Positions 12,069-12,296 of a stretch of DNA of 32,000 bases are shown here, piece by piece (the first letter of the stretch is position 1; every line of letters begins with the position of its first letter). The position numbers and the translations under genes are program-made. The stretch lies in the NCBI GenBank assembly GCA_965222695.1, contig OZ244967.1:5082303-5114302 (forward strand), in the 5' to 3' direction. The notes under the pieces were generated by a model. That model did no database searches, was not told the DNA's origin, and saw nothing but the letters and a program-made list of their open reading frames with translations. Origin of the DNA: Granulosicoccaceae bacterium (GTDB taxonomy: Bacteria; Pseudomonadota; Gammaproteobacteria; Granulosicoccales; Granulosicoccaceae).

Positions 12069-12296
12069 TAAGAATCTGCTTAAGATCTCTCTACCTACTG
12101 CGAATTAGGTGAGTTTGGCCAGATTTTCCCCTGATTTTATGCAGCACATCCGTGTGCTTTACACCTAAGGGGCTTGCGTTCAAAACGCTCCTGGCGTTTT
12201 AGTCGCTGCCTAGGCCCGACTATGCGCCTCAAATCAGAAAAAAATCTGACTCAAATCAGTAATTTCTCGCTACGGTACAGAGATCTTAAGCAGGTT
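12069..12296. mobile_element. MITE-like hairpin repeat, copy A (long form, divergent-terminus subfamily)
   Basis: About 228 bp, co-linear with 15258-15480 at high identity. Terminal inverted repeats CTGCTTAAGATCTCT (12076-12090) / AGAGATCTTAAGCAG (12279-12293). The arms are complementary over about 70 nt. Confidence 0.85.

What the first reader, a model, noticed from the sequence alone, without database searches (positions are those of the whole stretch)
12069..12296. Uncharacterised MITE-like hairpin repeat family: four copies in 32 kb, with concerted changes in both arms
Copies A (12069-12296), B (15258-15480 plus 16961-16970), C (30775-30940) and D (31849-31912) share about 24-bp near-perfect terminal inverted repeats. 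Their arms are complementary over about 70 nt (e.g. GCTGAGTTTGGCCAGATTTCCTCCTGATTT versus the reverse complement GCTGATTTGAGTCAGATTTTATTCTGATTT), so each copy can fold into one long hairpin. Between copy A and copies B/C, both arms have changed together. The termini are CTGCTTAAGATCTCT on both arms of A, versus CCTGTTCAA(A/T)ATCTCT on both arms of B and C. The next block is TACC on both arms of A, versus GCGCC/GCGTC on the two arms of B. Paired change of this kind argues that the hairpin (as DNA or RNA), rather than the primary sequence, is maintained. There is no coding capacity. All copies are intergenic, at gene ends or in promoter regions. I do not recognise it as REP/BIME, ERIC or Correia.
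Basis: seen in the sequence. Interest (0 to 1): 0.6.

Follow-up and report, generated by a model that had tools for sequence, protein, structure and literature searches.

The report
Hairpin-shaped miniature transposon family
The four repeats are copies of a small gene-less jumping element (a MITE) that folds end to end into one long hairpin, and it belongs to a large, apparently unnamed group of about 160-base elements found in many Proteobacteria, which keep their pairing by matched changes and fold better on one DNA strand than on the other.

Summary
The four window copies belong to a family with about 119 loci in this 5.2-Mb genome. There is a 160-bp form, a 226-bp form carrying a 66-bp internal cassette, and about 15 internally deleted minis such as copy D.

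It is a true transposon. It has 19-26-bp terminal inverted repeats (TIRs) and a 3-bp TNA target duplication. One copy sits inside a RAYT gene, and removing the element plus one TAA restores the reading frame.

The ends and the duplication match IS5-family (IS427/IS1031-type) insertion sequences. No working partner transposase was found.

The excess of compensatory changes is real, both within the family and, more strongly, between related families.

A covariance model finds full-length relatives in 34 of 151 sampled families of the class, and in a second class. All share three conserved sequence islands. In all 25 lineages examined the same strand folds better, because the G.T wobbles lie on that strand. 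Copy orientation is random relative to genes and to replication.

My reading is that the hairpin serves the element's own spread as a single-stranded form, not a host RNA.

Earlier notes of this scan describe related elements in other genomes. I found no published name.

The parts
12072..12294 (-). Copy A. Long form (about 223 bp) of a divergent subfamily. The better-folding strand is the window - strand. Flanks are TAA (12069-12071) and TAC (12295-12297).
12139..12203 (.). Optional internal cassette of about 66 bp in copy A, made of three small hairpins. It defines the long form.
   Evidence: 26 cassette hits in the genome, none outside MITE loci
15261..15480 (-). Copy B, main part. Long form, cassette at 15328-15393. 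Left target duplication TAA at 15258-15260.
15481..16960 (+). IS110-family insertion sequence. The transposase ORF is 15582-16631 and matches DEDD_Tnp_IS110 plus Transposase_20. It is inserted at TTGAAC^AGGCTC in the right TIR of copy B.
   Evidence: 11 of 11 genomic copies lie at this same TIR position
16961..16966 (-). Last 6 bp (AGGCTC) of copy B's right TIR, followed by target duplication TAA at 16967-16969.
30778..30937 (-). Copy C. Short 160-bp form, 100% identical to two other genomic copies. TAA duplications at 30775-30777 and 30938-30940. It lies between convergent AsnC-type regulator and GDPD genes.
31852..31907 (+). Copy D. A 56-bp internally deleted mini that keeps one arm up to the conserved GAG bulge plus the last 8 nt of the other terminus. 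Flanks TAA / TTA.

Best explanation

**Shown**
- Each copy is bounded by TIRs that begin GAGCCTGTTCAAAATCTC.
- Each copy has inserted at (C/G)TNAG with duplication of TNA.
- The family has recently been active, because three copies are identical.
- Its arms stay complementary through compensatory changes.
- It is a branch of a widespread group of about 160-nt hairpin MITEs. They share the terminal GGAGYCTG, three conserved unpaired islands and a rod-like fold.
- The rod folds better on one particular strand in every lineage examined.

**Inferred**
- The copies are moved in trans by a DDE transposase of the IS5 family (IS427/IS1031 type). Those elements have the same kind of ends and the same TA or TNA duplications.
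- The hairpin and its islands are kept because the element needs them for its own propagation. The likeliest form is a single-stranded version of one strand (ssDNA, or less likely RNA) that a protein recognises.
- They are not kept because individual copies serve the host as RNA.
For: **Family and census**
- 119 loci in size classes of about 160 and about 226 bp.

**Target duplication**
- 31 of 46 end pairs have identical TNA flanks, against 15.8 expected (p = 5e-6).
- The copy at G000:C1:1597509-1597668 interrupts a Y1_Tnp gene. Removing it plus one TAA restores ...ARYIIANPVRAGL....

**Recent activity**
- Three copies are 100% identical.

**IS5-type ends**
- DUF4096-type IS5-family elements fetched from 30 genomes end either TNA|GAG... 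(for example TAA|GAGCGTGTTTGAAAAATC) or cTA|GGGCCTGT...TAg. These two patterns mirror the two MITE types.

**Covariation**
- See (within the family; 37 of 56 pairs compensated between families).

**Distribution**
- Full-length matches of 160-163 nt in 34 of 151 families of the class, and in a second class.

**Strand asymmetry**
- 36 of 37 own copies, 56 of 57 Granulosicoccaceae copies and 19 of 19 further lineages fold better on the same strand.
- In a strand-neutral palindrome alignment, G.T mismatches number 81 on that strand against 27 on the other (p = 2e-7). By lineage the split is 19 to 3.

**No host-side orientation**
- Orientation relative to read-through transcription is 11:8, and relative to replication 19:18. 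Intergenic context matches the available space.
- In the sister family the split is 17:15.
- No promoter-like or terminator-like pattern lies inside copies.

**The hairpin forms in vivo as DNA**
- The internally deleted minis are deleted symmetrically about the hairpin axis.
Against: - **No partner transposase.** No autonomous element with matching TIRs was found in this genome. The only IS427/IS1031-type element here is a pseudogene, and only its first ~10 terminal bases resemble the MITE ends. No DUF4096 gene was found in 60 other genomes of the family, although these are mostly draft MAGs.
- **Mechanistic gap.** DDE transposons are not known to need a strand-specific single-stranded intermediate, so that step has no precedent for this class.
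- **Weak within-family contrast.** The contrast between shared and singleton wobble changes is not significant once symmetric mismatches are counted (13:6 against 16:13).
- **Possible bias in the asymmetry.** A conserved G.T pair shared by all lineages inflates the pooled count. The covariance model may also favour well-folding copies when it picks the best match in each genome.
- **No transcript data.** None could be obtained.
Confidence: 0.68

Rival explanations
1. The element is, or carries, a functional structured RNA that benefits the host. Possible roles are a 3'-UTR stabiliser or processing site, a terminator, or a small RNA. On this view selection on that RNA keeps the stem and the loops.
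For: - Compensatory changes pass through G.U intermediates on one strand.
- Conserved unpaired islands, and an invariant G.U inside a conserved 5-bp helix.
- ERIC, YPAL and Correia elements are reported to act on mRNA decay when co-transcribed (reviews PMC3184786 and PMC3733652).
Against: - The orientation of copies is random relative to the upstream gene (11:8 and 17:15). Half the copies would therefore be transcribed as the poorly folding strand.
- Copies occupy divergent promoter regions in proportion to the available space.
- No internal sigma-70-like promoter or intrinsic terminator pattern.
- No Rfam family matches.
- Copies decay and are deleted into minis.
Confidence: 0.15
2. The matched changes come from a DNA-level mutational process with no selection. 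The process would be hairpin-templated correction, either template switching in quasi-palindromes or mismatch repair within an extruded hairpin. It copies one arm onto the other.
For: - Double changes occur on single branches of the copy tree, including terminal ones.
- Symmetric internal deletions show that the palindrome is processed as a DNA hairpin in vivo.
Against: - Templated correction would make the arms perfect. Instead the arms keep many mismatches, and these are G.T on the same strand in 19 of 22 informative lineages.
- Asymmetric internal loops and bulges are conserved in sequence across two classes, which a symmetrising process would erase.
Confidence: 0.1
3. The element is a REPIN-like hairpin mobilised as single-stranded DNA by a Y1/HUH transposase (RAYT). 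The outer inverted repeats would then be incidental.
For: - The inner hairpin is bracketed on the better-folding strand by GTAG or CGTC tetranucleotides (CGTAGCGAG or CGTCGCGAG, and CGCAGTAG). These are the tags of REPs (PMC3733652).
- Strand-specific folding fits ssDNA recognition.
- REPINs also show compensatory changes (PMC3116915).
- The genome has two Y1_Tnp genes.
Against: - A genuine 3-bp target duplication is shown, and HUH single-strand transposition does not produce one.
- One RAYT gene is itself broken by the element, and its own flanking REPs are a different sequence.
- The other Y1 gene is not next to any copy.
Confidence: 0.05
4. The mobilising enzyme is an IS630-family (Tc1/mariner-like) transposase and not an IS5-family one.
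For: - The major type of the wider group inserts at CTAG and duplicates TA, which is the classic IS630 target.
- This genome holds 18 identical copies of an IS630-like element.
Against: - The family in this genome duplicates 3 bp (TNA), not TA.
- The IS630-like element's TIR (GTCAGTCAGGATG...) is unrelated to the MITE ends.
- DUF4096-type IS5 elements show both TA and TNA duplications, with similar termini.
Confidence: 0.08

Closest known systems
ERIC / IRU, YPAL (RU-2), and Correia (CREE/NEMIS) elements of Enterobacteria and Neisseria
   Same: - They are 100-170-bp non-coding MITEs with TIRs and short TA-type duplications.
- They fold end to end into long hairpins and lie mostly between genes.
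- Correia elements are also reported to carry functional motifs.
   Different: - There is no sequence relationship. The YPAL sequence printed in PMC2759123 has neither the GGAGYCTG ends nor the islands. This was compared by eye only.
- The duplication here is TNA, not TA.
- Those families are confined to a genus or family, whereas this group spans two classes.
- Correia was not compared by sequence here.
IS5-family MITEs and their parent elements (MITEPsy1/ISPsy2 and ISPsy19 of Pseudomonas syringae, PMC3189936), and eukaryotic Tourist MITEs of PIF/Harbinger
   Same: - The termini begin GAG or GGA.
- The duplications are short (3-4 bp) and lie at palindromic CTAG or YTAA-like targets.
- ISPsy19 has GAG... 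ends and a 3-nt duplication.
- Tourist elements duplicate TWA and are hairpin-shaped (from my own knowledge).
   Different: - MITEPsy1 is 100 bp, duplicates 4 bp, and shares its TIRs with a resident IS.
- Here no resident partner shares the TIRs.
- The interior here is unrelated to any IS examined.
REPINs (REP doublets forming hairpins) with RAYT transposases
   Same: - They are long hairpins of dispersed intergenic repeats.
- Compensatory changes on both sides are common (PMC3116915).
- They carry GTAG-type tags.
- A single-stranded, strand-specific form is proposed for them.
   Different: REPINs have no TIR/TSD signature and are tied to a flanked RAYT gene. Here a 3-bp duplication is shown, and a RAYT gene is a victim of the element, not its partner.
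QMITE2 of Coxiella burnetii (PMC5896051)
   Same: It is a 150-190-bp MITE in a gammaproteobacterium that serves as the specific landing site of an IS1111/IS110-family element. Here 11 of 11 IS110-family copies sit in the MITE's TIR.
   Different: QMITE2 has 7-11-nt duplications and a GTAG REP as the IS target. Here the IS target is inside the MITE's terminal repeat, and the duplication is TNA.
bcr1 repeats of the Bacillus cereus group
   Same: From my own knowledge and earlier scan notes, this MITE-like repeat of about 155 bp keeps its fold by compensatory changes and folds better in one orientation.
   Different: - It is found in Firmicutes and has a different target and different ends.
- The claim of one-strand folding was not found in the review I read, so this comparison rests on recollection.

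Membership tests
[quoted passage not shown] | Short (<300 bp), no coding capacity, many dispersed copies | tested here: met
   160 and 226 bp. 119 loci. Only a 6-codon ORF in the core (sequence).
[quoted passage not shown] | Terminal inverted repeats | tested here: met
   23-26 nt, 91-96% complementary. 221 TIR ends in the genome.
[quoted passage not shown] | Target-site duplication, shown against an empty site | tested here: met
   31 of 46 end pairs have identical TNA flanks, against 15.8 expected. The RAYT reading frame is restored by removing the element plus one TAA.
[quoted passage not shown] | An autonomous element with the same TIRs that supplies the transposase | tested here: not met
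   No TIR pair flanks a transposase gene in this genome. The same was seen in Marinobacter zhanjiangensis and, as far as the truncated hit list shows, in the four well-assembled genomes scanned. Many recognised MITE families also lack a known partner.
IS5 family, IS427/IS1031-type derived element | 2-3-bp duplication of TA or TNA at palindromic CTAG or CTNAG | tested here: met
   Own family: C|TNA|G. Sister families: cTA...TAg. The same two patterns are seen at DUF4096-type elements fetched here.
IS5 family, IS427/IS1031-type derived element | Termini similar to those of the parent IS | tested here: inconclusive
   The first 8-18 nt resemble several DUF4096-type elements (GAGCGTGTTTGAAAAATC, GGGCCTGTTGACG, GAGGCTGTCGTCA). 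None is identical, and the interiors are unrelated.
IS630-family derived MITE | TA duplication, and TIRs like those of a resident IS630 | tested here: not met
   The duplication in this genome is 3 bp. The TIRs of the resident IS630-like element are unrelated.
REP / REPIN (RAYT-mobilised) | No target duplication, and copies flank their RAYT gene | tested here: not met
   A 3-bp duplication is shown. The element interrupts one RAYT gene and does not flank it. The other Y1 gene has no copy beside it.
Any Rfam RNA family | A covariance-model match at or near the gathering score | tested here: not met
   No hits at gathering threshold over the window. At E <= 10 there are only weak generic long-hairpin (miRNA precursor) matches.
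ERIC, YPAL, Correia | Sequence similarity to the family consensus | tested here: inconclusive
   The YPAL consensus printed in PMC2759123 shows no shared ends or islands, by eye only. ERIC and Correia were not compared by alignment. Size and duplication differ from ERIC (127 bp, TA).

The most novel reading that the evidence does not exclude
The conserved rod is a strand-specific single-stranded structure that a dedicated protein recognises. The rod comprises the invariant GCGAG/TTCGC helix with its G.T pair, the GAG bulge and the apical cap.

Two versions fit the data:
- These IS5-ended MITEs transpose through a single-stranded hairpin intermediate, a mechanism not described for DDE elements.
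- The rod is a functional RNA or ssDNA module that rides on interchangeable transposon ends across two classes of Proteobacteria.
Probability: 0.25. Interest if true: 0.75.

Novelty: new variant of a known kind. Interest (0 to 1): 0.55.

Why it matters
MITEs are usually seen as short-lived, lineage-restricted debris in which only the terminal repeats matter. This element differs in three ways:
- It keeps a whole-length fold and three unpaired sequence islands across roughly a fifth of the sampled gammaproteobacterial families, and across a second class.
- Its terminal repeats and its target duplication (TA or TNA) vary between lineages while the fold stays.
- Its wobble pairs sit on the same strand everywhere, even though copies point either way relative to genes and to replication.

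If the fold is needed for mobility, this would be evidence for a single-stranded step in the spread of a DDE-type element, and it would offer a simple system for testing that. If the fold is an RNA, this is a widespread structured RNA that no database lists.

There are practical consequences too:
- The family is a landing pad for an IS110-family element in this genome (11 of 11 copies).
- It brackets genes such as the caspase-Sel1 gene in this window.
- It is likely to break draft assemblies of these bacteria.

Tried and rejected
**Partner transposase**
- I looked for TIR pairs 400-6000 bp apart. Only host genes lay between them.
- I checked the ends of every multi-copy PF01609 and PF13358 element in the genome. 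All were unrelated.
- PF13586 and PF13359 are absent from the genome.
- PF13340 was searched in 60 genomes of the family and was absent.
- I scanned Marinobacter zhanjiangensis and four well-assembled genomes for the TIR. Only MITE-sized or mini pairs appeared among the listed places, and the list for the four genomes was truncated.

**Empty sites in relatives**
- Same-genus genomes are only about 70% identical in the flanking genes. Base-level empty sites could not be aligned.
- The RAYT gene provided an internal empty site instead.

**Pattern scan of named genomes**
- Hits in a Chloroflexia insertion sequence and a Methylococcales MAG lack the element's architecture. About five chance matches were expected for a 20-base pattern, so I reject these as chance.

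**Other searches**
- The plasmid collection gave no match.
- A literature search for terminal 12-mers returned only unrelated primers.

**Promoter or terminator function**
- There are no consensus matches inside copies.

**IS interiors as the source of the MITE core**
- There is no similarity beyond the ends.

**A claim I dropped**
- My hand count suggested that only shared variants, not singletons, favour one strand (13:2).
- It did not survive a count that includes symmetric 1x1 mismatches (13:6, p = 0.17).

**Unavailable**

Full report
**1. The observation**

Their coordinates include the target duplications.
- Copy A is 12072-12294.
- Copy B is 15261-15480 plus 16961-16966, split by a 1480-bp insertion.
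- Copy C is 30778-30937.
- Copy D is a 56-bp remnant at 31852-31907.

The TIRs are 23-26 nt and 91-96% complementary. Copy A folds into a single rod of -87 kcal/mol, z = -7.1 against dinucleotide shuffles.

The window lies at C1:5082303-5114302 of a complete 5.21-Mb genome. A blastn census finds 119 loci. Full-length copies fall into two size classes: 160 bp, and 226 bp with a 66-bp internal cassette. The cassette never occurs outside the element. About 15 copies are internally deleted minis of 46-111 bp, like copy D. Their deletions are symmetric about the hairpin axis.

**2. It is a transposon**

The termini read GAGCCTGTTCAAAATCTC. The three bases outside them form a direct repeat of the form TNA in 31 of 46 end pairs (TAA 14, TTA 14, TCA 2, TGA 1). 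From the flank frequencies 15.8 were expected, p = 5e-6. The wider context is (C/G)TNAG.

One copy (C1:1597509-1597668) lies inside a gene that matches Y1_Tnp. Joining the flanks with a single TAA restores an uninterrupted ORF ending ...PDHLHWL...ARYIIANPVRAGLMESVSG. This is an internal empty site, and it shows a true 3-bp duplication.

Three copies, copy C among them, are 100% identical with different flanks, so the family moved recently. Of 37 full-length copies, 36 are intergenic in a genome that is 87% coding. Their split among tandem, convergent and divergent spacers follows the base pairs available.

**3. Which transposase**

No pair of these TIRs encloses a transposase gene. The ends of the resident multi-copy IS4/IS5-like and IS630-like elements are unrelated.

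The only IS427/IS1031-type element in the genome carries DUF4096 plus DDE_Tnp_1 and has in-frame stops. It is a pseudogene at C1:4859595-4860427, with ends GAGGCTGTCGTCA and flanks CAA/TAA.

To test the family assignment without relying on memory, I fetched DUF4096-type elements from 30 genomes of the class and read their ends. They are of two kinds:
- TNA|GAG..., for example TAA|GAGCGTGTTTGAAAAATC...|TAA.
- cTA|GGGCCTGTTGACG...|TAg.

These are the two patterns shown by the MITEs: TNA|GAGCCTGT... in this genome, and cTA|GGAGCCTGTCGG... or cTA|GGAGTCTGCGCGG... elsewhere. The interiors of those insertion sequences are unrelated to the MITE.

The assignment to IS5-type mobilisation is therefore an inference from ends and target. 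It is not a demonstrated partnership. P. syringae ISPsy19 (IS5 family, GAG... ends, 3-nt duplication) is a published parallel (PMC3189936).

**4. The compensatory changes are real**

I aligned 24 diverse copies (alignment A1).
- RNAalifold predicts 51 pairs, and 97% of cells are canonical.
- 16 pairs carry double-sided changes. Shuffling partners within columns gives 6.9 +/- 1.5 such pairs (0 of 500 shuffles reach 16). Sliding the partners by 1-3 columns gives 3-4.

On a maximum-likelihood tree of 35 distinct copies, paired columns change together on the same branch 21 times. With permuted partners the figure is 4.9 +/- 2.0 (0 of 2000 reach 21), and with slid partners 4-9. About 11 of the 21 events go from one canonical pair to another. 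Four are artefacts of a deletion.

**5. It is one branch of a much larger group**

A DNA search of relatives matched only the central 35-45 nt in other genera of the family. A pattern scan of named genomes identified these as Granulosicoccaceae MAGs. It also found Marinobacter zhanjiangensis, a Thiohalobacter MAG and others.

These elements have different TIRs and arms but the same length and the same three islands. Read on the better-folding strand, the islands are:
- CGTAGCGAG (or CGTCGCGAG), opposite CGCAGTAG;
- a GAG bulge;
- an apical ATTTGAGGCG.ATAGT...TA.CG.AACGA.

A cross-family alignment (A2, 19 sequences) gives 56 pairs, of which 37 have compensatory changes, with a covariation term of -11.5 kcal/mol.

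A covariance model built from A2 (R1) finds full-length matches of 160-163 nt in 34 of 151 genomes, sampled one per family of the class. Often it finds at least 19 copies per genome. In a phylum-wide sample it also finds matches in a second class, with 15 of 36 genomes in one family.

Rfam has no such family. A review table of bacterial MITEs lists nothing alike (PMC3184786). The printed YPAL sequence is unrelated by eye (PMC2759123).

Earlier notes of this scan describe the same or closely related elements in other genomes, which I treat as leads only.

**6. One strand folds better**

With orientation fixed by the asymmetric islands, the strand that reads GGCGCATAGT folds 13-18 kcal/mol better than its complement in six lineages. 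The same holds for 36 of 37 copies here and 56 of 57 Granulosicoccaceae copies. It also holds in 19 of 19 further lineages, with a mean difference of -14.9 kcal/mol under RNA parameters and -5.4 under DNA parameters.

Structure prediction itself favours G.U pairs, so I repeated the count on a strand-neutral alignment of each element with its own reverse complement, using the arms only. Transition mismatches are G.T on that strand 81 times and on the other strand 27 times (p = 2e-7). By lineage the split is 19 to 3. One G.T pair is conserved in all lineages and inflates the total, but the excess remains without it.

Covarying pairs pass through T.G intermediates on this strand (TA, TG, CG).

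**7. What the asymmetry does and does not mean**

Copies point either way relative to the gene that would read through them: 11:8 here and 17:15 in the sister family. They also point either way relative to replication, 19:18. A role in host transcripts, or a replication-linked mutation bias, would not give an asymmetry fixed in the element's own frame. Copies contain no sigma-70-like promoter and no intrinsic-terminator pattern.

The remaining explanation is a process intrinsic to the element's propagation that sees one strand in single-stranded form.

My first count suggested that only variants shared between copies, not private ones, favour that strand. This weakened to 13:6 against 16:13 when symmetric mismatches were included, so I do not rely on it.

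The GTAG/CGTC tetranucleotides that bracket the inner hairpin recall REP tags (PMC3733652). REPINs also show compensatory changes (PMC3116915). However, the proven target duplication, and the fact that a RAYT gene is disrupted by the element and not flanked by it, argue against HUH mobilisation.

**8. Verdict**

The thing itself, a MITE, is a known kind.

Three features are not ordinary: the breadth of the group, the conservation of a complete fold and of unpaired islands behind varying ends, and the consistent one-strand wobble pattern.

The partner transposase and the nature of the single-stranded form remain unknown.

Noticed in passing
window 15481-16960, and ten other places in the genome: All 11 full-length copies of the IS110-family element are inserted at exactly TTGAAC^AGGCTC within a TIR of this MITE. 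The genome holds 88 uninterrupted copies of that 12-mer. This parallels IS1111 in QMITE2 of Coxiella (PMC5896051).
   Followed up: partly
G000:C1:1597100-1597760 (outside the window): A RAYT-type Y1 transposase gene is interrupted near its 3' end by a MITE copy. Upstream of it lie REP-like sequences of the form GTAGGAGCTTGCCCTGCAAGC. Their head resembles the GGAGCTTGCGCGG termini of the Granulosicoccaceae MITE type.
   Followed up: partly
G000:C1, for example 198989-199444 (outside the window): An IS630-like element of 1216 bp is present in 18 identical copies. All the copies I inspected are inserted in the context ACTAGTA...ACTAG, so it appears very recently active and site-selective.
   Followed up: partly
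G000:C1:4859595-4860427 (outside the window): The single IS427/IS1031-type IS5-family element carries DUF4096 plus DDE_Tnp_1 with in-frame stop codons. Its ends read GAGGCTGTCGTCA and its flanks CAA/TAA. It is the only resident relative of the presumed mobilising class.
   Followed up: partly
G000:C1:2483264-2483597 (outside the window); also locus L007: Two MITE copies lie head to tail and share the target trinucleotide. This is expected, because each insertion regenerates a CTNAG (or CTAG) site at its own junction.
   Followed up: no
window 12418-15204: A 928-aa protein with Sel1 repeats and a C14 caspase domain (Pfam) is bracketed by the two long-form copies A and B in the same orientation. 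Recombination between them could delete or duplicate the gene.
   Followed up: no
window 5783-5882: A perfect hexanucleotide array (GGCTCT) of about 16 units lies inside the long minus-strand ORF 5395-7422.
   Followed up: no
loci L021, L065 (Chloroflexia MAG) and L069 (Methylococcales MAG): The 20-base core pattern also hit the start region of an unrelated transposase-like ORF (MRLKLILPIIDPEQFEEPEHC...). These hits lack the element's architecture, and I judged them chance matches.
   Followed up: partly
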